NCBI GenBank assembly: GCA_002070205.1
Contig: MWCU01000117.1
Coordinates: 1,993 to 65,992, forward strand
Source of the DNA: Firmicutes bacterium ADurb.Bin182
Lineage (GTDB): Bacteria; Bacillota; Clostridia; Christensenellales; CAG-138
Reading direction: 5' to 3'
Length of the DNA stretch: 64,000 bases
The notes beneath the pieces are model-generated. The model made no database searches and had not been told where the DNA came from. It saw nothing but the letters and a program-made list of their open reading frames with translations. Within the stretch, counting starts at the first letter, position 1. Each line of letters begins with the position of its first letter. Positions 7,959 through 24,863 of this stretch are shown in pieces. The position numbers and the translations under genes were made by a program.

Positions 7959-8429
7959 TCAAGCGGGATTGCCCAGCTTTTCGACCGCGGACTCGATAAG
8001 CTCTTCGCGCTTTGCCGCATTCGCCCAGTTGACAATACCCGTTCCGTAAGGATCCGCTCCCTTGCTCCTGCATATCTCGACCAGCTGCCCGAGCGCACGG
8101 TTGCCCCCCATCCATGGGAACGGAAAGGCCTGCGTCATAAAACAAGCTGTCTTTTTGCCCTTAAATGAGCCGACTCCGTTCAGATACGCCTGCATGACAG
8201 GTGAAAGCGAGAAACCGCGCACGGGAGCGCCGAAAAGCAACGCATCGTATTCACCGATATCGGGTTTTTCGCTCAGCCTGATTTTCCCGATATCGCTCTC
8301 ATCATCGTTGATTGCTGATACCCGGAGCAATGATACCGTATGCCCCGAGGCTGAGAGTTTCGCCATTATCCTTTTCGCAACAGCAAGAGTGTTGCCTGTT
8401 TGTGAATGCACAACAATACCGATTTTCAT
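7959..8429 (-). CDS. flavodoxin family protein
   Basis: It has the N-terminal MKIGIVVHSQTGNT phosphate-binding loop and is 156 aa long. Confidence 0.8.
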   Translation of the reverse strand: MKIGIVVHSQTGNTLAVAKRIMAKLSASGHTVSLLRVSAINDDESDIGKIRLSEKPDIGEYDALLFGAPVRGFSLSPVMQAYLNGVGSFKGKKTACFMTQAFPFPWMGGNRALGQLVEICRSKGADPYGTGIVNWANAAKREELIESAVEKLGNPA

Positions 8430-11171: not shown

Positions 11172-12323
11172 TCAGGCTCCGTTATTCCCCTTGCCGTTTC
11201 CGTTGTTGCTCTTATTGCCGTTGTTGCCGTTTCCATTATTGCCGTTGCCGTTGCTGCCCTTATTTCCGTTGTTACCGTTTCCGTTATTGCCCTTATTTCC
11301 GTTGTTGCCGTTTCCGTTATTGCCTTTATTTCCGTTGCTGCCGTTGCTGCCCTTTCCGTTTTTCTGCTGTTCGGACCGGGTTTCAAGTTCGATCTCAATA
11401 TCCTGAGCCATTTCCCCGCTCTGATCCTCATCCTGATCCGGAGCTTCCTCACCGTCATCCGTTCCGAATTTTAAAGCCTTCCTGTTGGCTTTTATTTCGG
11501 CCTGGATTTCCTGAACGGATTTTGATATCCACTCTTCGGTAACATAATCATCTTCGATATCCGGGGTGCTTACCTGCAGCTTCTGTACCAGATTAAGCTT
11601 TCCGGGGGTCACGCCGAGCGCCCTCGCCTGCTGTACGCGTTCGTAACCGACGCTTATAACCTCTATCTTGATGCCTTCGCCGCCCTCTTCTCCTTCATCC
11701 CCGTCGCCGTCGGGCTCAGGAGTTACGGTCGGCTCAACGGGATCCAATGTAGTTCCGGGGGTCTCGCTCGCTTCGGGAGTGGGAGCCGGGCTTTCTTCGT
11801 CGTTAAGGTCGTTGTTGACGGTATTGTAAATATCCTCTGCAAGGCTGTCGGCCTTGCTCCGGTTCTTGGAAGCCGCAGCGATTATAATGCCGCCTTCACC
11901 CCGTTCAAAATAACCTTCGTTAGAAATTTCCGTTATGATTTTGGTGATAGCATCGTTGATATTTTGATTGTTCAGTTTGTTCACATCGATCCGGCTAAGG
12001 ACCTCCGCGCCGTCTTCATTGACCGCTTCCACCGAAATCACCCTGTCAAAAAGATTGAGAGTAAGCTCAATGGAGGGGTTCACGTCGACGCTTACGTATG
12101 AATACGGAGCGGAAGCAAGAGCGCTTGTCCCGCCGACGAGTATTATAAGCGCCGCCGCGGCCGCCGCCCAAACTTTCAGCTTGCCTGCTTTAAACGAAGT
12201 TTTTTCTTTCATCTCAATTACCTGCCCTATCGCGAAGTTTTCGTTTTGTACTTTTTTTATGCATCCATCACGGGACAGGACAGCAGCGCTCCGTCCTCTG
12301 ATTTCAACGACCACCGCTTTCAT
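11172..12323 (-). CDS. rsgI: anti-sigma-I factor RsgI-like protein with Asn/Gly/Lys-rich C-terminal tail
   Basis: The ATG at 12323 has an AAGGAGGAG RBS and overlaps the sigI stop as ATGA. The N-terminus MKAVVVEIRGRSAAVLSRDGCIKKV resembles the RsgI_N domain. There is a single TM helix (VWAAAAAALIILVGG). The C-terminal 65 aa are almost entirely N/G/K. Confidence 0.7.
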   Translation of the reverse strand: MKAVVVEIRGRSAAVLSRDGCIKKVQNENFAIGQVIEMKEKTSFKAGKLKVWAAAAAALIILVGGTSALASAPYSYVSVDVNPSIELTLNLFDRVISVEAVNEDGAEVLSRIDVNKLNNQNINDAITKIITEISNEGYFERGEGGIIIAAASKNRSKADSLAEDIYNTVNNDLNDEESPAPTPEASETPGTTLDPVEPTVTPEPDGDGDEGEEGGEGIKIEVISVGYERVQQARALGVTPGKLNLVQKLQVSTPDIEDDYVTEEWISKSVQEIQAEIKANRKALKFGTDDGEEAPDQDEDQSGEMAQDIEIELETRSEQQKNGKGSNGSNGNKGNNGNGNNGNKGNNGNGNNGNKGSNGNGNNGNGNNGNKSNNGNGKGNNGA

Positions 12324-13072
12324 GTGTCCGACTCCTCCTTGATGTATTGCATATAATCCGAAAGGCAAGGATACTCTCCGGATAGTATCTCTGCCGCCGC
12401 TATTATATACTTTCGATGGCGTTCAAGTTTTTTTCGGGGTATATTGAGATTTTTTTCTATTATTTTCAGCGGAAGCTGCTTTGAGGTTTTCATTTCACTG
12501 AGCAGCAAAGGATTTCCCAGAATATATTTAACCGCTTTTGCGCAAACGGACTTTGTTTTCTTCGATCTCGGGGAACATTCGGATAAATCCATAAATGTAA
12601 AGCCGTACTGCCGGAAAACCCTGCCTGCGGCCTCAATTTCCATTTTGACAGCGCTCTCCGTATCCTGCACAGCTAAGCGGGCTACGGCTTTTCGAACGGA
12701 GCCGCTTAGCTCTTCCTCATCCTCATCCGCGCCGAATGCCGTCGGATTCACGGGGATCTCTTTGCTGTATTTGCCTTTGTTTCGCTGATAATCGATTAGC
12801 CTTCTTCGAATCACCGTTTCCGCAAAAAACAGAAAGCTCCCTTTATCGAAACGGTATTTGGAAACGGCTTCCGCAAACGCAGTCAACGCGACAGACCATT
12901 CGTCATCGCTTTTTGTAATGTACCTGTGCGCAATCAGCGATGAACACTTCAGTATGAATTGCTCATTTTCAACGATCAGCCGGTCGAGCTTACTCTCGTC
13001 TAGCGCAGCCTCCTGAGCCAAACAATCGAGTTTTCGCAATTTTTCACCACCAAATTGCACTGATATCGTCAT
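12320..13072 (-). CDS. sigI: RNA polymerase sigma-I-type factor
   Basis: The product is 250 aa. The region-2-like block FLFFAETVIRRRLIDYQR and the C-terminal block NLNIPRKKLERHRKYIIA are present. It is coupled to the rsgI-like gene. Confidence 0.75.
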   Translation of the reverse strand: MTISVQFGGEKLRKLDCLAQEAALDESKLDRLIVENEQFILKCSSLIAHRYITKSDDEWSVALTAFAEAVSKYRFDKGSFLFFAETVIRRRLIDYQRNKGKYSKEIPVNPTAFGADEDEEELSGSVRKAVARLAVQDTESAVKMEIEAAGRVFRQYGFTFMDLSECSPRSKKTKSVCAKAVKYILGNPLLLSEMKTSKQLPLKIIEKNLNIPRKKLERHRKYIIAAAEILSGEYPCLSDYMQYIKEESDT

Positions 13073-16981: not shown

Positions 16982-17008
16982 GAACGGGCGGACAGTGTCC
17001 GCCCGTTC
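16982..17008. repeat. 27-nt perfect hairpin, left copy of a duplicated terminator stem-loop
   Basis: The sequence is GAACGGGCGGACAGTGTCCGCCCGTTC. An identical copy lies at 17211-17237. This left copy lacks a T-tract. Confidence 0.85.
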
Positions 17009-17012
17009 CAGC

Positions 17013-17208
17013 GTGTCGAAGAAGTCTGTATAGACTTCTTCGAGTTCTACACGCTTTGCCTAAAATCAAAGATTTCCGGGCGGCAAAGCGTGCAAAGTAC
17101 GAAATCCATAGGGATTTCATCCGTTTCACCGTACATGCCGCTGAAGCCGGATTGAAAATTAAGGGGTTGCGACCCCTTAATAATCCCAAAATGACTTTTT
17201 CGACAGTC
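17013..17208 (+). mobile_element. MITE-like structured repeat, copy B
   Basis: The ~196-bp element has imperfect terminal inverted repeats, GTGTCGAAGAAGTC and GACTTTTTCGACAGTC. Internal stems are TCGAAGAAGTC/GACTTCTTCGA, CACGCTTTGCC/GGCAAAGCGTG, GAAATCC/GGATTTC and TTAAGGGGT/ACCCCTTAA. It has no coding capacity of transposase size. Confidence 0.75.
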
Positions 17209-17210
17209 TA

Positions 17211-17243
17211 GAACGGGCGGACAGTGTCCGCCCGTTCATTTTT
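17211..17243. terminator. Intrinsic terminator hairpin plus T-tract, right copy of the duplicated hairpin
   Basis: GAACGGGCGGACAGTGTCCGCCCGTTC is followed by ATTTTT. It lies between the Ddl-like gene (+) and the helicase gene end (-). Confidence 0.6.
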
Positions 17244-17267: not shown

Positions 17268-19448
17268 TCAAAGCGAAAGTATCTCTTTCGACATGCCCTC
17301 GATATCGAGGCCGTCCGCCGCAAACGCCTTGCGAAGAAGCGCGTGAGGCACGAATTCGTCATATTTGCCGAGATAGGGCGCTTCGTCCGCTTCCATAAGC
17401 GAATAAGGGTCGGGCGGATTTTCGGCCTGCCGAAGGATCGCTTGCGCTACCGTATCAGCGTCAGGCGTTCCGGCGACCGTTAAATAGTACGGTTCCGTCG
17501 GAAGTATTTTCCTAAGCCCCAAAGGCCTGGAAAGGAGAAGCTTCAGCTCCCTCGTCAAAGTGCGAAACTGCCTGCTCCCGAGCCACGGCAGAATAAACAG
17601 CGTATCCCCTCCCGCGTTGAGCACGAAATTGCGCAAAAGTCCGCTCTCTTTTGCAAGCCTCCGCGCGCGTTCCAGCCTGCCGGCCGCGTTGGGCCTCAAA
17701 TAGGGATAGACCTCAGTCCCTTCGAGTATTTCATACATTTTTTTTATAACGCGCGTATGTATGTCCCCGCCCGCGCCAAGCCACAGAGTATCCGCTTTGC
17801 CTCTTATAGGCTCGACGTATACAGCCTTGTGCTTGGCGTCCACCTCGAGAATGCGCCAGGCTTTTCCCGCAAGCGTCATCGCGTATCCCGGCGGAGGCAC
17901 TACATTGATGCTTCCTATCTCCTCCGTCCCGGAATATACGGAATGCTCCTCATCGTCCTTGAATACCGCGTAAAAACGGAAGTTGTTCACTATTCTCTCT
18001 CCCGCCAGCCCGATTATAAGCGTTCCCTCTTCCGTATTTTGAATGTGATCGGTCTCTGTCAGGTACCGAAGCAGCGCTTTATAATCTTCAGGGTCTATAT
18101 TTTTAAACGCGGGCAGGGACAGAACCTCCCGGGCCAGCCGCGCGGGAGCCGTTTCACCGAGGCTTTTGAGTACGCTCATCGTCTGGTGATACAGAAGGCC
18201 CATAGGCTGCGAGCGAAGAGTAAAGGGTTCTATCCATTTATCCTTGGTATAAAGCTCGATGACCGATACGGCGCGCAGCAGAGTCCAAGGAATCCTCGAC
18301 GGCAGTGGCGCTTCCTCATCCTCCTCCTCCGCACATACGAAAAGCATTTCGGGAGGATTTCCCCTCCGTCCGGAGCGTCCGAGCCTCTGCACAAAGCTTG
18401 AGCAGGTCGTTGGCGCTCCGAGCTGCAGCACCCTGTCAAGATCGCCAAGGTCAATTCCAAGCTCAAGAGTTACGGTCGCCGCAGTTACGACGGGTCCCGC
18501 ACCGGTTCGCAGCTTAGACTCGGCCTCCTCGCGAAGCATGGCGGAAATGCTTCCGTGATGGACGTAAAACACATCCCGTTCCGCCCTTTTCCCCGCTACG
18601 ACGCGAAGCTCCCGTGTTATCATTTCCGCGTCGTCGCGGCTGTTGGTAAATATCAGGCTTTTTTTTGTGTGGGTATGGTCATAAACATAGTCGAAATACG
18701 CCTTCCGGGCGTTTTCCAGAGCTTTTGCCTGCTCCTCGTCCCGCGCGTCCGGAAGCGAAAAATGCTCGACCGCCAAAAGTATCCTCCTGCCCGCATCCGG
18801 GTGTACGACCGACACGCCGCTCAAAGTGCCCTCCCTCAGCCACGCGACAGCCGTTTCATAATCATCCATAGTCGCGGATAAACCGATGCGCCTCGGAGAA
18901 CATCCCGCCATGCGCTCTATCCTCGAGAGTTGGCAAATAAGCTGCGCTCCCCTCGTCTCGTTCATAAAAGCGTGGACTTCGTCCACTATTATGAATCTTA
19001 AGTCGCAAAAAAGGGAGGGAATTGAATTTGGCCTGTTCATCAAAAGCCCTTCAAGCGATTCCGGCGTGATCTGCAAAACGCCCGAAGGATTTCGCATAAG
19101 TTTGGTTTTTTCGGCCTGCGACACATCTCCGTGCCAATGCCAGACCGGAATATTCGCTTCGTTCAAGAGGTCGTTCAGGCGTTCGAACTGATCGTTGATA
19201 AGGGCTTTTAAAGGGCCTATATATAAAATCCCGACGCTGCGGGAAGGGTTTTCATAAAGCTGAGTCAGCGCGGGGAAAAAAGCGGCTTCGGTCTTACCGC
19301 TCGCTGTTCCTGTCGCTATCAGGAGATGGTCTTGAGTGTCGAAAAGGACCCTGCAAGCTTCGATTTGGGCATCCCGAAGCTCTTCCCACCTTTGCGCATA
19401 TATCCACTCCTGAATGAAAGGGGCAAGACGGTAAAAAGGATTGCTCAT
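17268..19448 (-). CDS. sngC: Lhr-like DEXH-box helicase (Shango SngC-like / BrxHI-like)
   Basis: Helicase motifs are GTASGKTEA (I), IIVDEVH (II), LSAT (III), ELGIDLG and QRLGRSGRR (VI), followed by a long C-terminal extension. The start overlaps the upstream stop as ATGA (19445-19448). Confidence 0.75.
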   Translation of the reverse strand: MSNPFYRLAPFIQEWIYAQRWEELRDAQIEACRVLFDTQDHLLIATGTASGKTEAAFFPALTQLYENPSRSVGILYIGPLKALINDQFERLNDLLNEANIPVWHWHGDVSQAEKTKLMRNPSGVLQITPESLEGLLMNRPNSIPSLFCDLRFIIVDEVHAFMNETRGAQLICQLSRIERMAGCSPRRIGLSATMDDYETAVAWLREGTLSGVSVVHPDAGRRILLAVEHFSLPDARDEEQAKALENARKAYFDYVYDHTHTKKSLIFTNSRDDAEMITRELRVVAGKRAERDVFYVHHGSISAMLREEAESKLRTGAGPVVTAATVTLELGIDLGDLDRVLQLGAPTTCSSFVQRLGRSGRRGNPPEMLFVCAEEEDEEAPLPSRIPWTLLRAVSVIELYTKDKWIEPFTLRSQPMGLLYHQTMSVLKSLGETAPARLAREVLSLPAFKNIDPEDYKALLRYLTETDHIQNTEEGTLIIGLAGERIVNNFRFYAVFKDDEEHSVYSGTEEIGSINVVPPPGYAMTLAGKAWRILEVDAKHKAVYVEPIRGKADTLWLGAGGDIHTRVIKKMYEILEGTEVYPYLRPNAAGRLERARRLAKESGLLRNFVLNAGGDTLFILPWLGSRQFRTLTRELKLLLSRPLGLRKILPTEPYYLTVAGTPDADTVAQAILRQAENPPDPYSLMEADEAPYLGKYDEFVPHALLRKAFAADGLDIEGMSKEILSL

Positions 19449-20818
19449 AACTCGAACTCCGTTAAGAACCCGGTCAAGTCCTCGTCGGGATCCTTGGAAG
19501 CGGGTTTTACTTTATGGTCCTTGACCAGCTCTTCAAATTTCACGTCCGGATTTTGCAGCAGGACGTCCTGAATATCCATAAAATCGCGTATCACCTCGCG
19601 CGGGGTAAGCAACGCGTCCGCCCCCATTCTGCCAACAGCCGTCTCCATAAACAAAACAAGCTCTTCGTCGGTTATTTTCGATTGATAGCCGTGATGCCCG
19701 CTATGAAGAGCCCTGAGTTTTTGGAGCAGGAGAAAAATCTCCTCGTTGGAGAGCATTTCAAGCTTTAAAACGGGTCCCGAGGTGTTTTTAAATCCTCCGG
19801 AAGAAAACCTTCCTTCAATAAGCCTTGTGCGCAGCGCTTCATAGCTGTAAAGCCCCCTTCGCTGATCCTCCACAAACTGGGGAGTTCCGCCCATGAAAAT
19901 TGCCAGGTGCGACGCTTTACCCTGCATGGTGTCATTGAACATCATGAGCAGCTTCTCGTAATTTGCGGTCCTTGCAATGCTGTTCGTTATTTTGTAAAGA
20001 TTGACGCCCTCGTCGATAAAAAGGATCAGCCCCCTGTAACCTATCCTGGTCACAAATTCCGCCCAGAGCTTGATATAGTCGTACCAGCTTTCGTCGTCTA
20101 TTATCGCGCTAACGCCCAAAGCCTGACGCGCTTCGGTTTTTGTTGAAAACTCGCCTCTCAGCCACCTGAGCGCTGCCTGCGTTTTTTGGTCGTCCGCTTC
20201 TTTGTAACCCCGGTAATATGTCGCGACAGCCAAAGAAAAATCAAACCCGTGCACCATGTATTCAAGCTCGCCGGCAGCAAAGAGTATGCTCTCCTCGACC
20301 ATTCGGGGCAGCGCCGGATCGCCGGGATGCAGCCCGTTTTCCTTCATCAGTTTTTGGGAGATTCCCGTTATCCATTTTTGAAGTATCATTTCAAGCGCGC
20401 CTCCGTCGGGGCGGGTGCGCGTCGCGAGATTGGTCATAAGCTCCCTGTATGTTGCGTGTCCCTGCCCTTTCGTACCCACAAGCCTTCTTTCAGGAGAAAG
20501 GTCAGAGTCCGCCACGACAAAATCGCGATCCATAGCAAAGTTCCGGATAGTCTGAAGCATAAAGCTCTTCCCGCTTCCGTATCTTCCGGTTATAAGCTTG
20601 AACGCGGCTGCGCCCTGAGCCGTATTGTCAAGGTCGCTTAAAAGAGCCTGGATTTCAGCCTTGCGGCCGACCGCGATATGCTCGAGGCCGACCCTCGGCA
20701 CCACGCCCGCGGTCAGCGAGTTGACGAGAGCCGTGGACACGCGTTTGGGTATTTTAAATTCGTTCATTAAGCCGTTCCTGCCTGTCAAATATCTTGCCGA
20801 GGACGGGTACGTATTCAT
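19445..20818 (-). CDS. sngB: P-loop ATPase, DUF2791/BrxD-like (Shango SngB-like)
   Basis: It has Walker A GRYGSGKSF and Walker B LILFIDEG. The ATG at 20818 has a GAGGA RBS and overlaps the upstream gene by 65 nt. An alternative ATG at 20767 would overlap by 14 nt. Confidence 0.7.
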   Translation of the reverse strand: MNTYPSSARYLTGRNGLMNEFKIPKRVSTALVNSLTAGVVPRVGLEHIAVGRKAEIQALLSDLDNTAQGAAAFKLITGRYGSGKSFMLQTIRNFAMDRDFVVADSDLSPERRLVGTKGQGHATYRELMTNLATRTRPDGGALEMILQKWITGISQKLMKENGLHPGDPALPRMVEESILFAAGELEYMVHGFDFSLAVATYYRGYKEADDQKTQAALRWLRGEFSTKTEARQALGVSAIIDDESWYDYIKLWAEFVTRIGYRGLILFIDEGVNLYKITNSIARTANYEKLLMMFNDTMQGKASHLAIFMGGTPQFVEDQRRGLYSYEALRTRLIEGRFSSGGFKNTSGPVLKLEMLSNEEIFLLLQKLRALHSGHHGYQSKITDEELVLFMETAVGRMGADALLTPREVIRDFMDIQDVLLQNPDVKFEELVKDHKVKPASKDPDEDLTGFLTEFEL

Positions 20819-23800
20819 CCTCTATCCTCATATCCGTTATGATTATATCATTAAGCGTTTCCATCGCGGCTTCGTTTACGGAGTCTACCATTATTTGCGT
20901 CATCACTCCCGACTTGTCCGCCAAACGCTGAAGCTCGCCGGCATTATTAAAATAAACAGCGCGAAGGATTTCCAGCAGTTCGGGGGGCAAGTTTTCAACA
21001 AACGACTTCCAGCCGCCGCCCAATTCCGCAAGCCCCGAAAAAGCGGCCTCGTTCTCGCGTTTTTCGCCGAGCAGCATTTGAAGCTCATCCCGAAAATCCT
21101 CGTCGACCAGTATTTTGTGCCCCTCCTCAACAATCAGAAGCCTTTTGAGCATGTCAAGCGCTTTTTCATTGACCGAGTTCACGGCAAGCTCCGCAAAAAA
21201 GCCGGACTCGCTGCCGAGTTCGCTGCCGCTCACCTCCCACCCGCTTTCAAAAAGATGAGTGAGCAAACGACTCTCGTCGATTGAAAGGGACTGTACGAGC
21301 TCTTTTAAACTTGAGGGTCCGGTTTTATGCAAGTTCGCTTCTGCACCATACGGGAATCCTGTTTCCTCCGGCTCGTCGAAGCCTTGCACAGTCAGCATTT
21401 CCCGGGTCATATCCGATTCTTTCGCAATGCGGGCAAGTTTATCCCGGTCAAGCGTGACTTTGACCGGTTCCGGCTTTTCAGTGAACTCCCTCTCCAGATA
21501 AAGCTCTATAAGCTTTTGAATATCGAGCTCAAGATCGACGCCCCTGAGCTTTCCCGAAGCACCTTTTATATCCCTTAGCTTATTCTCCGCGCACCGTATG
21601 ACCTGCGCCAAAAAATCCCTTAACGGCGCGTGCGTGCTGAGCGGAGCGACGGTGAGCTTTATTTCACGCACCGTCCCCGTATAGACAGCGCTTCTGAATA
21701 CGGAGCGCGTTCGAACGAGCCGGCCGGGATTGAACATTTCGATTATCCTTTGCCCATGCCTTTTTTTCAGGTATGAATCCACAAGCGCTATCACCTTGGG
21801 CAGGCAGAGGTCAATTTCTGCCGAATCTACGCTTTGATAAAACCTGCTTTGCCGGATATCGTAATTCGAGGCGCGTGAAAGCATTGAAATGCCGATATCC
21901 ACAGGCTCTGCGCTCAACCTGCGATAAAGCTCCATATCCAGCAAATCTCCGGTTATATTGTTCCCGCTCAACGATAAAATTTCCTGCACGGAAACATCGA
22001 TTTCGTATAAAAATATGAAATCGACCATCCAGTTTACGAGGTATTCGTCAAGCTTCGGATAAGTTTGCCTGTAAGCCCTCCAAACCGCCATCAGCCTGTC
22101 ATACCCCTGCCGTTTCGTTTCGCAGCCTACGAGGTTCAAAAGCTCATATATGTAAAGGAATATATAGGAAAGATCGGTCTTCGGATATCTTTGGTTTCGA
22201 ACCTCGCTTCTCCAGTAAATATACCATTGAGTTTGCTCCTGCGTCATCCGGTCATAGGTAGGCCAATAAGTCATGAACGGAACAAACTCGGCGAAATCGA
22301 GAGATCTGTCGGCGAGCTCGTGCGCCATCCTTATAAACCGCGGCTCGGGGCTTTCAAAAACGGGTCTTCCGGGCGGAATTCCGGCCGTACCGGTATGCGA
22401 AAAAACGGGCCTTTTGGGGATGGAAACTCCTTTTGAATGCAGCGCTCCGGGTATTTTGACGGAGGCGAAGTTCTGCTTTTCGAAATTATAATACGGACGA
22501 AAGCTGTGAGGGCGGGGCAGCCTCGGAAACTGCCTGTCGGGATCGATAACGGAGAACATCCCTATGAACTTATTCGGTATCCTTAAAAGCGATCGTTGGA
22601 TCTCTTCATGCCTTTCCGTCAGTTTATAGGCGTTTTCGGAATAAAGCGCGATCCTGAGCCTTGCCTTTATGCGATATAAATCCCGAAACGTTTTGCTTAC
22701 CTCCGTTTTTGTCATGTTATCGGGCTCGAGCAATATAAGCAAGTCAAAAGCGGCGGATAATACTTGATCGGACTTTTCCAGCTCGCCTGAAGAAATGACC
22801 CGTATCCCTCCCGGGTGCAAGTATGCGAAGGCGTCTTCAGGCAGGATATAAGGGCGAAGCCGCGCCAAATAAGAATCGATTTCCTTTAAAAGAGCCTTTT
22901 TCCCGACTATAAGCACCCTGCAGTCAGGAGCGGCGGTTTGAAGGCCCGATAAAAACTCGACCGTATCCTGCATGTTCCGCTCAACGCCTCCCAAAAGACC
23001 GCCGCTGACGCCCCATTTCGCCAAAAACGCGAGGTGATGGAAACTCCTTCTTTCCTGCGCTTCTCCATAGCCGAAGTCAATTATCTCCATATGCGTCCAG
23101 GGACCTTTAAGCCTGTCGCTGCCGCGCCTGAAAAGCTCTTCGTCCTTTAAGGGATACGGCTTGTCCAGCGGCATTCCGTCCGAGGTCCTTCCCATTCTCC
23201 CAAGTCCCGCCGAATTCAGCAAGGATACGGGCACAAACCCGTGATCGAGCCGAACGTAGCCGGAAGAAGAGATCGACCGCGAGACTTTTGCGGGGTCATA
23301 CTCTTTCCCGCCCGCTTGGAGAACCGCCCTTGCATAAGGCCGGCCGACGCCTTTTTTTAATTCCGGATATGCCTGAAGCTTAAGTTCCGCCTTATCGAAC
23401 ACGTCATGCATCCGAATAAGCAAACTCAAATCGCCCTGTATGAACGGCGCCCATACGCCCTTTGCGGCCAGCACGAAATCCGCAATGTCGTCGCCCTCAA
23501 GAACACGCCGCTGCCCGCTTGAAAAAAACCTGTTAAAAAGCTCCCCGGAAAGCTTCGGGCGAACCGCACCGCAACATACAGCAAAATCCTCCGTTTCCCG
23601 GATCCTCACAGCATCGGCGCATTCGTCTCTAAGTTCTATTTCAACTGTGTTTTCACCGGCGTTTATTATGCGGATTTTATTTAGCGGCTCATCGAGATAG
23701 ACTAGCGGACAGTCGTAAGCTACGCCTTTTTTTGACCATTCCGGCAGCACGTCCCTTAAAAATGCTACAAGCGCAGCGCCTTCGATAATATTGCCGATAT

Positions 23801-24302
23801 ACTGAGCATGAGAAGCTTCAAGCCCGCTTTTCCACATTTGCTCGCCGCACAGGAACCATCCGTCACCAAGTGAGATCACTTCGTTTTGCGGCTTGAAGAG
23901 CAAAGCCCCGCCCTCCCGAACGAACGAAATGCGAAACCAACCGGGCGGCTCCGTTATATCCACCCTTTTTACAAACGCGTCCAGTTCAAAGGCGGCGATC
24001 TTTTTTTCTATTTGGATCGAGCATTTGAACATCCACGCGCGGACCTGTTCAAAATACGCGGGTCTGATATTTACCGAATCCGAATTCGTAAACAACGGCA
24101 CGGGAGGGATCAGGCGGAACGGCAGCGAATCCATCGCCTTGCGCAATGACACGGGTTCGCCGTTATCGGATGCATGCAGAATGAAGCATGCCTGATTTGC
24201 TTCAAAAGACAAACGGAAGCACGGATGCTGCTCCGAAACCGGAAACGACGGCCTGTCCACTTTATTACATCCCTTTTTCACCGGTTTTTTGCGAGAGAAC
24301 AT
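20754..24302 (-). CDS. sngA: TerB-N / TerB-C domain protein with long N-terminal extension (Shango SngA-like)
   Basis: The TerB-N-like block is FVPFMTYWPTYDRMTQEQTQWYIYWRSEVRNQRYPKTDLSYIFLYIYELLN (aa ~670-725). Two TerB-C-like modules lie near the C-terminus, containing AVNSVNEKALDMLKRLLIVEEG and MVDSVNEAAMETLNDIIITD. The first ~650 aa have no family that I can name with confidence. Confidence 0.7.
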   Translation of the reverse strand: MFSRKKPVKKGCNKVDRPSFPVSEQHPCFRLSFEANQACFILHASDNGEPVSLRKAMDSLPFRLIPPVPLFTNSDSVNIRPAYFEQVRAWMFKCSIQIEKKIAAFELDAFVKRVDITEPPGWFRISFVREGGALLFKPQNEVISLGDGWFLCGEQMWKSGLEASHAQYIGNIIEGAALVAFLRDVLPEWSKKGVAYDCPLVYLDEPLNKIRIINAGENTVEIELRDECADAVRIRETEDFAVCCGAVRPKLSGELFNRFFSSGQRRVLEGDDIADFVLAAKGVWAPFIQGDLSLLIRMHDVFDKAELKLQAYPELKKGVGRPYARAVLQAGGKEYDPAKVSRSISSSGYVRLDHGFVPVSLLNSAGLGRMGRTSDGMPLDKPYPLKDEELFRRGSDRLKGPWTHMEIIDFGYGEAQERRSFHHLAFLAKWGVSGGLLGGVERNMQDTVEFLSGLQTAAPDCRVLIVGKKALLKEIDSYLARLRPYILPEDAFAYLHPGGIRVISSGELEKSDQVLSAAFDLLILLEPDNMTKTEVSKTFRDLYRIKARLRIALYSENAYKLTERHEEIQRSLLRIPNKFIGMFSVIDPDRQFPRLPRPHSFRPYYNFEKQNFASVKIPGALHSKGVSIPKRPVFSHTGTAGIPPGRPVFESPEPRFIRMAHELADRSLDFAEFVPFMTYWPTYDRMTQEQTQWYIYWRSEVRNQRYPKTDLSYIFLYIYELLNLVGCETKRQGYDRLMAVWRAYRQTYPKLDEYLVNWMVDFIFLYEIDVSVQEILSLSGNNITGDLLDMELYRRLSAEPVDIGISMLSRASNYDIRQSRFYQSVDSAEIDLCLPKVIALVDSYLKKRHGQRIIEMFNPGRLVRTRSVFRSAVYTGTVREIKLTVAPLSTHAPLRDFLAQVIRCAENKLRDIKGASGKLRGVDLELDIQKLIELYLEREFTEKPEPVKVTLDRDKLARIAKESDMTREMLTVQGFDEPEETGFPYGAEANLHKTGPSSLKELVQSLSIDESRLLTHLFESGWEVSGSELGSESGFFAELAVNSVNEKALDMLKRLLIVEEGHKILVDEDFRDELQMLLGEKRENEAAFSGLAELGGGWKSFVENLPPELLEILRAVYFNNAGELQRLADKSGVMTQIMVDSVNEAAMETLNDIIITDMRIEDEYVPVLGKIFDRQERLNERI

Positions 24303-24572
24303 GCCGCTTTCATTACAGTCGCCAAGTAATCACAGATTGAATCATGCGCATCGTCATGCCGGCGTTTCTCACCACGCCGGTTGAACGGTACCGGCGGGCT
24401 TCGCCGAAAATGCTCGTTACGGCGCTGCTATTCCCAAACTGTTCGCATAGCGGCACAAAAAACCTTCGCTTTACCGGCGATCATCCTTCTTATTCAGTGT
24501 TTACTTATTATCATACCAAATATTCCCGATGTTTTCTATACGGGATGGCCGCCGAAACTTCTAAGACGCGCC

Positions 24573-24863
24573 CTAGTATATGGAAGTATAGCCGGACATG
24601 GTATGGCGGTGCCCGTCATTAAATCCCGTAATTCCGGTGTAATAATGTACATGCCCTCCGTCGCTGCCCATTTCGGGCCCGGACGTAAAAGCATAGCTGT
24701 GCATATGGCGGTCTGCAACAGCAGTTCGTCCGTCCAATGCGTGCTTGTGTCCGGGAACGTCCGGAGCTGCGCCTGTTTCGCCGGAATAGCGATGCCTGTG
24801 GCCGTCGTTAAATGAAGTTTCTCCGTTATAAGAATGAGTATGGAAACCCTGAGTATAATCCAC
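24573..24863 (-). CDS. YmaF family protein (His-rich repeats)
   Basis: It has a GTG start 7 nt after GGAGGTG. The motifs DGHRH, GHKH, DRHMH, GGHVH and DGHRH recur and the product is 96 aa. I prefer this over the overlapping 178-aa ORF. Confidence 0.7.
   Translation of the reverse strand: MDYTQGFHTHSYNGETSFNDGHRHRYSGETGAAPDVPGHKHALDGRTAVADRHMHSYAFTSGPEMGSDGGHVHYYTGITGFNDGHRHTMSGYTSIY

What the first reader, a model, noticed from the sequence alone, without database searches (positions are those of the whole stretch)
17268..24302. Tightly coupled TerB-N/TerB-C + BrxD-like ATPase + Lhr-like helicase operon, a Shango-type anti-phage candidate
**Seen in the sequence.**
- Three co-directional minus-strand genes have overlapping junctions. 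The ATPase stop and helicase start share ATGA at 19445-19448. The ATPase start (20818 or 20767) lies inside the last codons of the TerB gene.
- The first product has a TerB-N-like block (FMTYWPTYDRMTQEQTQWYIYWR...SYIFLYIYELLN) and two TerB-C-like modules.
- The second product has Walker A GRYGSGKSF and Walker B LILFIDEG.
- The third product has a complete DEXH helicase motif set: GTASGKTEA, DEVH, SAT and QRLGRSGRR.

**From established knowledge, as I recall it.**
- The TerB-N/TerB-C + P-loop + helicase neighbourhood was predicted as a conflict system by comparative genomics (Anantharaman, Iyer, Aravind 2012).
- It was validated as Shango (SngA/B/C; Millman et al. 2022).
- The same ATPase + Lhr-like helicase pair occurs as BrxD/BrxHI in type 2 BREX.
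- The mechanism is still unknown.

**Inference.** This is a functional defence operon. It is flanked on its 3' side by a MITE-like insertion and sits in a region with other accessory genes.
Basis: partly seen in the sequence, partly recalled or inferred. Interest (0 to 1): 0.8.

Follow-up and report, generated by a model that had tools for sequence, protein, structure and literature searches.

The report
Shango defence operon, long SngA variant
This is a complete three-gene Shango anti-phage operon, a known system whose mechanism is unknown, and its first protein carries an undescribed 600-residue N-terminal module that includes a catalytically dead half of a SNF2 DNA motor.

Summary
Three co-directional minus-strand genes with overlapping junctions lie at 17268-24302, and every quoted motif is present. 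PADLOC models assign them to Shango: SngA 2.7e-99, SngB 1.4e-194, SngC 5.8e-246. The BREX BrxD and BrxHI models are clearly second best. Pfam gives TerB_N plus two TerB_C units, BrxC_BrxD, and DEAD plus Helicase_C.

Residues 1-621 hit nothing in Pfam, PADLOC or NCBIfam. An exhaustive search finds 114 relatives, nearly all at the N-terminus of 1050-1280-aa SngA proteins. Every one whose context I checked is followed by SngB and SngC.

AlphaFold models (pLDDT 88 and 85.5) searched with Foldseek show residues ~419-606 as SNF2 ATPase lobe 1. Best matches are Chd1, the Zorya protein ZorD and Sulfolobus 1z63. The P-loop is absent in 51 of 51 family members and the Walker-B aspartate in 48 of 51. There is no lobe 2.

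SngA diverges much faster than SngB and SngC and occurs in short, medium and long forms, so it looks like the sensor subunit. The operon is solitary, not in a defence island. The 3' inverted-repeat element is real, but I found no other copy. Phage defence is untested.

The parts
20754..24302 (-). sngA, long form. It is 1182 aa from ATG 24302, or 1168 aa from GTG 24260 as in public gene calls.
   Evidence: ORF. PADLOC SngA 2.7e-99, covering only aa 639-1077. Pfam TerB_N and TerB_C. Full-length AlphaFold model with pLDDT 85.5.
22485..24230 (-). N-terminal module of SngA (aa 25-606), absent from the canonical SngA model. It consists of beta-rich domains (aa ~25-418) followed by the SNF2-like lobe.
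   Evidence: No Pfam, PADLOC or NCBIfam hit, even at E <= 10 for Pfam. 114 relatives at E < 1e-3 among 1.84 billion representatives. AlphaFold pLDDT 87.9.
22485..23048 (-). Catalytically dead SNF2 (Swi2/Snf2) ATPase lobe 1, aa ~419-606. No lobe 2 follows.
   Evidence: Foldseek against PDB: 84 hits at E <= 1e-3, with SNF2 ATPases filling the listed top 50 (Chd1 1.9e-8, ZorD 3.4e-7, 1z63 1.5e-6). The lobe superposes at rmsd 2.5-5 A over 155-200 columns. The viral library gives SNF2 helicases too. The profile against PDB sequences aligns LLEPD with the DEAQ box of 1z63. No GK[ST] in 51 of 51 members, and the Walker-B Asp position is hydrophobic in 48 of 51.
22356..22484 (-). Predicted disordered, basic linker (aa 607-649) between the N-module and TerB_N.
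   Evidence: pLDDT below 50. Net charge +5. In locus L030 the protein is split into two ORFs at about this point.
21756..22439 (-). TerB_N domain (aa 622-849). It is all-helical in the model.
   Evidence: Pfam PF13208 2e-35. Invariant residues P681, Q690, W693, R698, Y713, E720, Y744 and D761 across 51 homologues.
21081..21473 (-). First TerB_C unit (aa 944-1074).
   Evidence: Pfam PF15615 1.4e-18. Helix-strand-helix-helix-strand-strand topology in the model. Strongly acidic, net charge -12 over aa 995-1093.
20832..21005 (-). Second, partial TerB_C unit (aa 1100-1157).
   Evidence: Pfam PF15615 1.2e-7 on the isolated C-terminal fragment.
19445..20767 (-). sngB, a BrxD-type (ORC/Cdc6-clade) AAA+ ATPase of 440 aa. 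An alternative start at 20818 would give 457 aa.
   Evidence: PADLOC SngB 1.4e-194, with profile position 1 at M18. Pfam BrxC_BrxD 8e-162. Walker A and Walker B intact. The ORC/Cdc6 clade assignment comes from PMC12839542.
17268..19448 (-). sngC, an Lhr/Ski2-like SF2 helicase of 726 aa. Its start overlaps the sngB stop (ATGA at 19445-19448).
   Evidence: PADLOC SngC 5.8e-246 over 3-714 of 720 profile positions. DEAD and Helicase_C. Closest solved structure is Lhr 5v9x at 6e-33. Motifs I, II, III and VI are present.
24510..24538 (-). Candidate sigma-70-type promoter (TAGAAA, 17-nt spacer, TG-TATGAT) in the 270-bp spacer upstream of sngA.
   Evidence: Consensus scan only. Promoter-like sites were no more frequent than in shuffled sequence, so this is weak evidence.
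16982..17237 (.). 256-bp inverted-repeat element between the convergent ATP-grasp gene and sngC. The hairpin at 17211-17237 lies 31 nt after the sngC stop codon.
   Evidence: 45-nt terminal inverted repeats at 89% complementarity and two identical 27-nt palindromes. Spacer folds at -153 kcal/mol, z = -13.4. No Rfam family matches. No other copy found.

Best explanation
The locus is an intact Shango anti-phage operon, sngA-sngB-sngC, of a 'long-SngA' subtype.

Shown here: all three genes are full length, translationally coupled and catalytically competent where that is expected. SngB has intact Walker A and B motifs, and SngC has helicase motifs I, II, III and VI. SngA is a soluble protein with four parts: (i) a conserved ~400-residue beta-rich region; (ii) an ATPase-dead SNF2 lobe 1; (iii) a disordered basic linker; and (iv) the canonical TerB_N domain plus two acidic TerB_C units.

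Inferred mechanism, about 35% for the full chain. SngA is the variable sensor and adaptor subunit. Its dead SNF2 lobe and neighbouring basic segments bind DNA or a phage DNA-associated protein without translocating. The BrxD-type ORC/Cdc6 AAA+ ATPase SngB responds by loading or switching on SngC. SngC is an Lhr-like 3'-to-5' translocase that unwinds or strips phage replication or recombination intermediates. This blocks phage DNA replication, either directly or by exposing the DNA to host nucleases, because no nuclease is encoded in the operon. The acidic TerB_C units may hold SngB and SngC inactive until the trigger arrives.
For: Identity: PADLOC SngA, SngB and SngC are the best hits at 2.7e-99, 1.4e-194 and 5.8e-246. 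Pfam finds TerB_N, TerB_C, PF10923, DEAD and Helicase_C.

Operon structure: overlapping junctions. The same gene order occurs in 21 other genomes and in 3 divergent long-form loci.

Intactness: all catalytic motifs are present.

Dead SNF2 lobe: high-confidence models. Foldseek hits at E <= 1e-3 are SNF2-type in PDB, and essentially all SNF2 helicases in the viral library. The alignment to 1z63 is in register at motif II. Motif I and the Walker-B aspartate are lost across the family.

SngA as the variable subunit: its TerB half is only 26-43% identical to relatives whose SngB is 50-73% and SngC 46-73% identical. The N-terminus comes as short (509-672 aa), medium (860-950 aa) and long (1084-1197 aa) forms beside near-identical B and C genes.

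Loader and helicase logic: BrxD and BrxHI are a tightly linked dyad, BrxD is proposed as the loader or activator of the helicase, and an inactive Swi2/Snf2 P-loop in PglZ is proposed as an invader-recognition module (PMC12839542).

Solubility: no transmembrane-like segment, with maximum KD19 of 1.28.

Family activity: anti-phage activity of Shango was shown in E. coli and P. aeruginosa.
Against: No experiment exists for this locus or for any long-SngA Shango. Even for the canonical system the mechanism is unknown.

The operon is not in a defence island. Its neighbours are SigI/RsgI, DUF362, HD, SRAP, ATP-grasp, YmaF, DUF2179 and LysM genes.

DNA binding by the dead lobe is inferred only from the fold and a mild positive charge (+5).

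The TerB_C units have a winged-helix-like topology but are strongly acidic (-12 and -7), which argues against DNA binding by them.

The TerB_N and TerB_C half produced no solved-structure match at E <= 1e-3, so an unrecognised enzymatic activity there cannot be excluded.

Similarity of residues 25-418 to the ZorD N-terminal domain is not established. The long alignments have rmsd of 23-28 A.
Confidence: 0.85

Rival explanations
1. The operon is a housekeeping DNA-repair module, with an Lhr-type helicase and accessory factors that process damaged or stalled replication intermediates. It is not an immune system.
For: The SngC core is closest to the repair helicase Lhr and to ligase-associated DEXH helicases. 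The neighbours include SRAP (an abasic-site sensor family) and an HD hydrolase, and there are no flanking defence genes.
Against: All three proteins match Shango models far better than Lhr-type equivalogs. NCBIfam scores of 212 and 196 bits fall far below cut-offs of about 850.

Distribution among relatives is patchy. SngA diverges rapidly and its N-terminus is modular.

Related copies lie on a plasmid (P0025), next to primase/DUF5906 mobile-element genes (L027), next to NurA/HerA-type genes (L025) and disrupted by an IS element (L030).

The family has been experimentally validated as anti-phage.
Confidence: 0.06
2. The locus is a remnant or satellite of a type 2 BREX (Pgl) system. On this view the BrxD and BrxHI pair survived after the methyltransferase, PglZ and PglW genes were lost.
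For: BrxD (3.2e-50) and BrxHI (1.7e-125) are the second-best PADLOC hits. PF10923 is named for BrxC/BrxD.
Against: The SngB and SngC models score about 3.8-fold and 2-fold higher than BrxD and BrxHI. NCBIfam BREX_BrxD scores 171 bits against a cut-off of 350.

A TerB_N/TerB_C gene is translationally coupled upstream, as in Shango. No PglZ, PglX, BrxC or PglW gene lies nearby. The same three-gene unit recurs in 24 other loci.
Confidence: 0.02
3. Shango acts by membrane surveillance. In this model SngA is a TerB-like amphitropic protein that senses phage-induced envelope perturbation at the membrane, as suggested when the system was named.
For: Millman et al. proposed membrane surveillance for TerB-containing systems. 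The 2025 Dionysus preprint repeats the idea for TerB proteins.
Against: SngA here has TerB_N and TerB_C but no TerB (PF05099) domain. No hydrophobic segment in SngA, SngB or SngC approaches a transmembrane helix.

The extra module is derived from a DNA-dependent ATPase fold. The two partner proteins belong to DNA-loader and DNA-helicase families.
Confidence: 0.07

Closest known systems
Shango (SngA/SngB/SngC; Millman et al. 2022; Johnson et al. 2023)
   Same: Same three families, in the same order, as one tightly coupled operon. All three proteins score best on the PADLOC Shango models. SngB and SngC are canonical over their full length.
   Different: SngA is 1182 aa against a 528-position model. 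It carries a conserved ~600-residue N-terminal module with a dead SNF2 lobe 1, which no Pfam, PADLOC or NCBIfam model covers, and a second TerB_C unit. The host is an uncultured Bacillota (Clostridia-type) bacterium, whereas the validated systems come from Proteobacteria. The operon is solitary, not in a defence hotspot.
BrxD + BrxHI of type 2 BREX (Pgl)
   Same: The same pairing of a PF10923 ORC/Cdc6-type AAA+ ATPase with a Ski2/Lhr-like helicase carrying wHTH and Lhr-CTD-like domains. The two genes are tightly linked.
   Different: There is no methyltransferase, PglZ, BrxC or PglW. The pair is coupled to a TerB_N/TerB_C protein instead. Scores are well below the BREX equivalog cut-off.
ZorD of type I Zorya (PDB 8qy7)
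   Same: It is the best or near-best structural match to the SngA N-terminal region, at 3.4e-7 and 5.5e-7. It is a defence protein with a large N-terminal domain followed by a SNF2 module.
   Different: ZorD has a complete, active SNF2 core. Its DEAQ residues 730-731 are needed for its ATP-dependent nuclease activity. SngA has only lobe 1 and lacks the P-loop and the Walker-B Asp. Only the lobe superposes well, and equivalence of the N-terminal domains is not established (rmsd 28 A). No sequence-level hit to any PADLOC ZorD model was found.
Inactive Swi2/Snf2 P-loop domain at the N-terminus of BREX PglZ (PMC12839542)
   Same: A catalytically inactive SNF2-derived P-loop domain fused to a defence protein. 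It is fast-evolving and proposed to act as an invader-recognition module.
   Different: It belongs to a different host protein and system. I did not compare the two domains directly.
Lhr (mycobacterial Lhr core, PDB 5v9x and 7lhl)
   Same: It is the closest solved relative of the SngC motor domains, at 6e-33. There is also a weak WH_Lhr match.
   Different: The match covers only residues 3-289. SngC is 726 aa, and its C-terminal half follows the BrxHI/SngC pattern, not the Lhr tetramerisation domain.

Membership tests
Shango | SngA: a protein with TerB_N and TerB_C domains | tested here: met
   Pfam TerB_N 2e-35 and TerB_C 1.4e-18 in two units. PADLOC SngA 2.7e-99.
Shango | SngB: a PF10923 P-loop ATPase that matches SngB better than BrxD, with intact Walker motifs | tested here: met
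   SngB 645 bits against BrxD 170 bits. GRYGSGKSF and LILFIDEG are present.
Shango | SngC: an SF2 helicase that matches SngC better than BrxHI, with a complete motif set | tested here: met
   SngC 817 bits against BrxHI 418 bits. GTASGKTEA, DEVH, SAT and QRLGRSGRR are present.
Shango | Three adjacent co-directional genes in the order A-B-C, conserved across genomes | tested here: met
   Overlapping junctions. The same order occurs in 21 genome loci and in 3 further long-form loci.
Shango | Protects cells against phage infection | not testable with these tools
   Shown only for the E. coli and P. aeruginosa PA14 systems. No data exist for this locus or for any long-SngA form.
Type 2 BREX | Core genes BrxC, PglX methyltransferase and PglZ (plus PglW) in the same locus | tested here: not met
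   No such Pfam domain appears among the genes called within +/-10 kb. No PADLOC hit among the 10 nearest neighbours, apart from a generic HD match.
SNF2 (Swi2/Snf2) ATPases, for the SngA N-module | RecA-like lobe 1 with the SNF2-type fold | tested here: met
   Foldseek E = 1e-8 to 1e-4 against Chd1, ZorD, 1z63, ISWI, Mot1 and INO80, with rmsd 2.5-5 A over 155-200 columns. Phage SNF2 helicases match in BFVD.
SNF2 (Swi2/Snf2) ATPases, for the SngA N-module | Motif I (GxGKT) and motif II (DExH/Q) | tested here: not met
   None of 51 members has GK[ST]. The Walker-B Asp position is L, I, M or F in 48 of 51, and the box reads L-E-P/A-D.
SNF2 (Swi2/Snf2) ATPases, for the SngA N-module | Lobe 2 (Helicase_C) following lobe 1 | tested here: not met
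   There is no Helicase_C hit in SngA. Lobe 1 is followed by a disordered linker and the helical TerB_N domain.
MITE (for the 3' element at 16982-17237) | Short non-coding element with terminal inverted repeats | tested here: met
   256 bp with 45-nt TIRs at 89% complementarity.
MITE (for the 3' element at 16982-17237) | Multiple dispersed copies and a target-site duplication | tested here: not met
   Only these two palindrome copies occur in the 64-kb window. There are zero exact matches in the JGI metagenome contigs. The flanks TCTTATAC and ATTTTTCC show no duplication. The rest of the source genome could not be searched.

The most novel reading that the evidence does not exclude
Long SngA is a pseudo-enzyme built from the front half of a ZorD-like SNF2 defence protein. 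The motor was killed and its second lobe was replaced by TerB_N and TerB_C.

On this reading the dead lobe is the trigger sensor of Shango. It binds phage DNA, or a phage protein that normally targets SNF2-type motors, and gates the SngB-SngC loader-helicase pair.

The short, medium and long SngA forms would then be interchangeable sensor cassettes on one effector chassis. The same N-module may also be reused outside Shango, as suggested by L029, where it stands alone beside HSP70-like and AAA genes.
Probability: 0.3. Interest if true: 0.6.

Novelty: new variant of a known kind. Interest (0 to 1): 0.4.

Why it matters
Shango is widespread and experimentally validated, but its mechanism is unknown. 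Its signature protein SngA has had no interpretable domain beyond TerB_N and TerB_C, which are themselves of unknown function.

One SngA lineage carries a conserved, confidently modelled, ATPase-dead SNF2 lobe. SngA is also the fast-evolving, modular subunit, set beside nearly invariant SngB and SngC. Together these point to a nucleic-acid-centred sensing role, not membrane surveillance.

This suggests concrete experiments: deleting or swapping the N-module, DNA-binding assays, and comparing short with long forms on the same SngB-SngC pair.

It also shows that current SngA models annotate only about 40% of these proteins. For the window itself, the practical result is simply a correct annotation: a complete, probably functional Shango operon in an uncultured Bacillota genome.

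Tried and rejected
1. The word-indexed homology search was useless for SngA. The N-terminal query found nothing. The full-length query and the 51-sequence profile each found only the window's own protein. The index saturates at 8000 candidates. The exhaustive HMMER search was needed instead.

2. I looked for an SngA-SngB fusion as evidence of physical interaction. A 90% cluster mixed 1444-aa SngA proteins with 465-aa ATPases, but BLASTP and Pfam show they are unrelated proteins. The link is probably a chimeric 2091-aa gene call in a contaminated plant assembly. Rejected.

3. I considered equivalence of SngA residues 25-418 with the ZorD N-terminal domain. The long Foldseek alignments (582-627 columns) have rmsd of 28 A and E-values no better than lobe-only hits. 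Not claimed.

4. I considered the TerB_C units as DNA-binding winged helices. The topology fits, but the net charges of -12 and -7 argue against it. Not claimed.

5. I tested mobility of the 3' element. There was no extra copy in the window or in the JGI metagenomes, and no Rfam family matched.

6. I tested for recent horizontal acquisition. Operon GC is 0.520 against 0.464 for the rest of the window, the top of all 7-kb windows, but GC3 is similar to the neighbours. No flanking direct repeats were found. Inconclusive.

7. I could not read Anantharaman, Iyer and Aravind 2012, so I could not check whether a SNF2-like fusion to TerB_N was already noted there.

The model was built from database proteins only.

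Full report
**1. The observation**

The window carries three co-directional minus-strand ORFs at exactly the stated coordinates: 20754-24302 (1182 aa), 19445-20818 (457 aa) and 17268-19448 (726 aa). The second gene's stop and the third gene's start share ATGA at 19445-19448. Both candidate starts of the second gene (20818 and 20767) lie within the last codons of the first gene.

Two details need refining. The ATPase most probably starts at 20767. The SngB profile begins at that methionine, public gene calls use it (440 aa), and homologues align from it. The SngA start is ambiguous between ATG 24302 and GTG 24260, and public calls use the GTG (1168 aa).

**2. Family assignment**

Pfam gives these hits:
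- Gene 1: TerB_N (2e-35) and TerB_C (1.4e-18, two stretches).
- Gene 2: BrxC_BrxD PF10923 (8e-162).
- Gene 3: DEAD and Helicase_C, with a weak WH_Lhr match.

The second TerB_C unit was confirmed separately on the C-terminal fragment (1.2e-7).

PADLOC assigns all three genes to Shango: SngA 2.7e-99, SngB 1.4e-194 and SngC 5.8e-246. BrxD (3.2e-50) and BrxHI (1.7e-125) are distant seconds. NCBIfam has no SngA model, and its BREX_BrxD and Lhr-type equivalogs score far below their cut-offs. SngC's closest solved relative is mycobacterial Lhr (5v9x, 6e-33). SngB and the TerB half of SngA have no solved relatives by sequence.

**3. Conservation**

A scan of one genome per species with SngB returned 21 loci. 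Most are Paenibacillus, with Fontibacillus, an Eubacteriales MAG, a Bacillota MAG and a Ruminococcus MAG. All have the A-B-C order.

Compared with our proteins, SngB is 50-73% identical and SngC is 46-73% identical. The TerB half of SngA is only 26-43% identical. SngA is thus by far the fastest-evolving subunit.

**4.

The canonical SngA model has 528 positions and aligns only to residues 639-1077 of the 1182-aa protein. Residues 1-621 hit nothing in Pfam even at E <= 10, and nothing in PADLOC or NCBIfam. The word-indexed protein search also found nothing.

An exhaustive phmmer search of 1.84 billion representatives found 114 relatives at E < 1e-3, of which 43 were below 1e-30. Nearly all are 1050-1280-aa proteins that match at their N-terminus.

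Among the 21 fetched loci, SngA comes in three sizes:
- Short, 509-672 aa: no extension.
- Medium, 860-950 aa: shares only our residues ~296-600.
- Long, 1084-1197 aa: shares the whole extension.

Three divergent long forms (P0016, P0046, P0010) are each followed by a PF10923 ATPase and a DEAD/Helicase_C helicase. Public records call these proteins 'TerB N-terminal domain-containing protein' or 'hypothetical protein'.

**5. Nature of the extension**

An AlphaFold2 model of residues 1-621, built on a 22-sequence alignment, is confident (pLDDT 87.9, pTM 0.72). Foldseek against the PDB gives 84 hits at E <= 1e-3, and SNF2-family ATPases fill the listed top 50. They include Chd1 (1.9e-8), the Zorya defence protein ZorD (3.4e-7), the Sulfolobus SWI2/SNF2 core 1z63 (1.5e-6), ISWI, Mot1, INO80 and SWR1. 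The viral library likewise returns essentially only SNF2 helicases from phages and large DNA viruses.

The part that superposes well (rmsd 2.5-5 A over 155-200 columns) is RecA-like lobe 1, at residues ~419-606.

A profile search against PDB sequences independently puts 1z63 first. The hit is not significant (E = 0.078), but it aligns our ...WDLLILLEPD.MTKS... with ...WKYIVIDEAQNIKN..., which is SNF2 motif II.

Across 51 family members:
- None has a GK[ST] P-loop.
- The Walker-B aspartate position is L, I, M or F in 48 of 51.
- The following glutamate is kept in 36 of 51.

No lobe 2 follows. The full-length model (pLDDT 85.5) shows a disordered basic linker at 607-649, then an all-helical TerB_N, then the TerB_C units after a second disordered stretch at 972-994. 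The module is therefore an SNF2-derived, ATPase-dead half-motor.

All 47 PDB hits at E <= 1e-3 for the full-length model are SNF2-type, so the TerB half has no close solved fold. The longer alignments to ZorD (582-627 columns) have rmsd of 28 A. I therefore do not claim that residues 25-418 correspond to the autoinhibitory N-terminal domain of ZorD.

**6. Modularity and decay**

In L030 the N-module and the TerB part are separate adjacent ORFs, split near the predicted linker. SngB there is truncated by an IS element, so this is a decaying locus. In L029 a 612-aa N-module ORF with its own stop codon follows HSP70-like and AAA genes, and no TerB ORF starts in the remaining 180 bp of the contig. 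This may be reuse of the module in another system, but the contig ends too soon to tell.

An apparent SngA-SngB fusion suggested by clustering proved to be an artefact.

**7. Surroundings**

The source is assembly GCA_022706985.1, contig JAKJBM010000011.1. The identical SngA gene with sngB and (complete or cut) sngC downstream also occurs in two independent sequencing runs.

The neighbours are a SigI/RsgI-like pair, DUF362, an HD hydrolase, SRAP, ATP-grasp, YmaF, DUF2179 and LysM-CAP genes. None matches a defence model apart from generic HD similarity. This is a solitary Shango, not part of a defence island.

Operon GC (0.520) is the highest of any 7-kb stretch in the window (mean 0.474, sd 0.019), but GC3 resembles the neighbours. 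No flanking direct repeats exist. Recent acquisition is possible but not shown.

The 3' spacer holds a 256-bp element at 16982-17237. It has 45-nt terminal inverted repeats, each ending in the same 27-nt perfect palindrome. It folds far more stably than shuffles (z = -13.4) and matches no Rfam family. I found no further copy in the window or in the JGI metagenome contigs, and no target-site duplication. 'MITE-like' describes its anatomy fairly, but mobility is unproven.

**8. Mechanism**

The literature held here shows Shango protects E. coli and P. aeruginosa and that its mechanism was still unknown in 2025-26.

The 2026 BREX survey classifies BrxD as an ORC/Cdc6-clade AAA+ ATPase. It classifies BrxHI as a Ski2-like helicase with wHTH, a HAS barrel and an Lhr-CTD-like domain. 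It proposes that BrxD loads or activates the helicase, and it interprets an inactive Swi2/Snf2 P-loop in PglZ as an invader-recognition module.

Combined with my results, the most likely working model is as follows. SngA is the variable sensor and adaptor. In the long form, its dead SNF2 lobe and basic linker bind DNA or a phage DNA-associated factor. SngB couples that signal to loading or activation of SngC. SngC then unwinds or strips phage replication intermediates. No nuclease is encoded, so any degradation would depend on host enzymes or on an unrecognised activity in TerB_N or TerB_C.

What is shown: family identities, intact motifs, the dead-lobe fold, the modularity and the divergence pattern. 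What is inferred: the binding target, the order of events and the outcome.

The published 'membrane surveillance' suggestion fits this locus poorly. There is no TerB (PF05099) domain and no transmembrane-like segment, and the added module has a nucleic-acid-motor fold.

**9. Novelty and verdict**

The operon itself is a new member of a known, validated family. The long-SngA architecture, with its dead SNF2 half-motor, is conserved in at least 114 sequence clusters. It is not covered by any domain model I could search, and it is not mentioned in any paper I could read. I could not access Anantharaman et al. 2012.

I rate it a new variant of a known kind. Its interest is moderate. It would not astonish a specialist, but it gives a concrete handle on how Shango senses infection.

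Noticed in passing
window 16982-17237: A 256-bp non-coding element sits between convergent genes. It has 45-nt terminal inverted repeats, each ending in an identical 27-nt perfect palindrome. The 308-nt spacer folds at -153 kcal/mol (z = -13.4). It matches no Rfam family, I found no other copy, and no target-site duplication is evident.
   Followed up: partly
L029:6001-7839 (Logan ERR11637157): A 612-aa ORF consists only of the SngA N-module and has its own stop codon. It directly follows an HSP70-like (834 aa) gene and an AAA (470 aa) gene. No TerB ORF begins in the remaining 180 bp. The module may be reused in a different system, but the contig ends there.
   Followed up: partly
L030:5216-9841 (GCA_011440305.1): A decaying long-form Shango. 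The N-module (515 aa) and the TerB_N/TerB_C part (569 aa) are separate adjacent ORFs. SngB is truncated after about 225 residues by an IS (rve transposase) insertion, and SngC is missing.
   Followed up: yes
L025:1-5803 (Logan SRR25213505): A divergent long-form Shango lies immediately downstream of SMC/SbcC-like, NurA, DUF8166 and HerA-like genes. That looks like a defence-island context, unlike the window.
   Followed up: no
window 24573-24863 (-): A 96-aa histidine-rich YmaF-family ORF (Pfam 1.5e-17) lies on the same strand, 270 bp upstream of sngA. It is probably unrelated to the operon.
   Followed up: partly
window 11172-13072 (-): A SigI/RsgI-like sigma and anti-sigma pair (RsgI_M 1.9e-26, with a weak Sigma70_r2 match). 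This is consistent with a Clostridia-type Bacillota host.
   Followed up: no
protein cluster of P0018: A 90%-identity cluster mixes 1444-aa SngA proteins with 465-aa SngB ATPases. The link is apparently a 2091-aa chimeric gene call labelled Corchorus olitorius (a plant), which points to bacterial contamination of that assembly.
   Followed up: yes
window 20832-21473 (SngA aa 944-1157): The TerB_C units are modelled with a winged-helix-like topology but are strongly acidic (net -12 and -7). That is unusual for DNA-binding winged helices and suggests protein binding, metal binding or DNA mimicry.
   Followed up: partly
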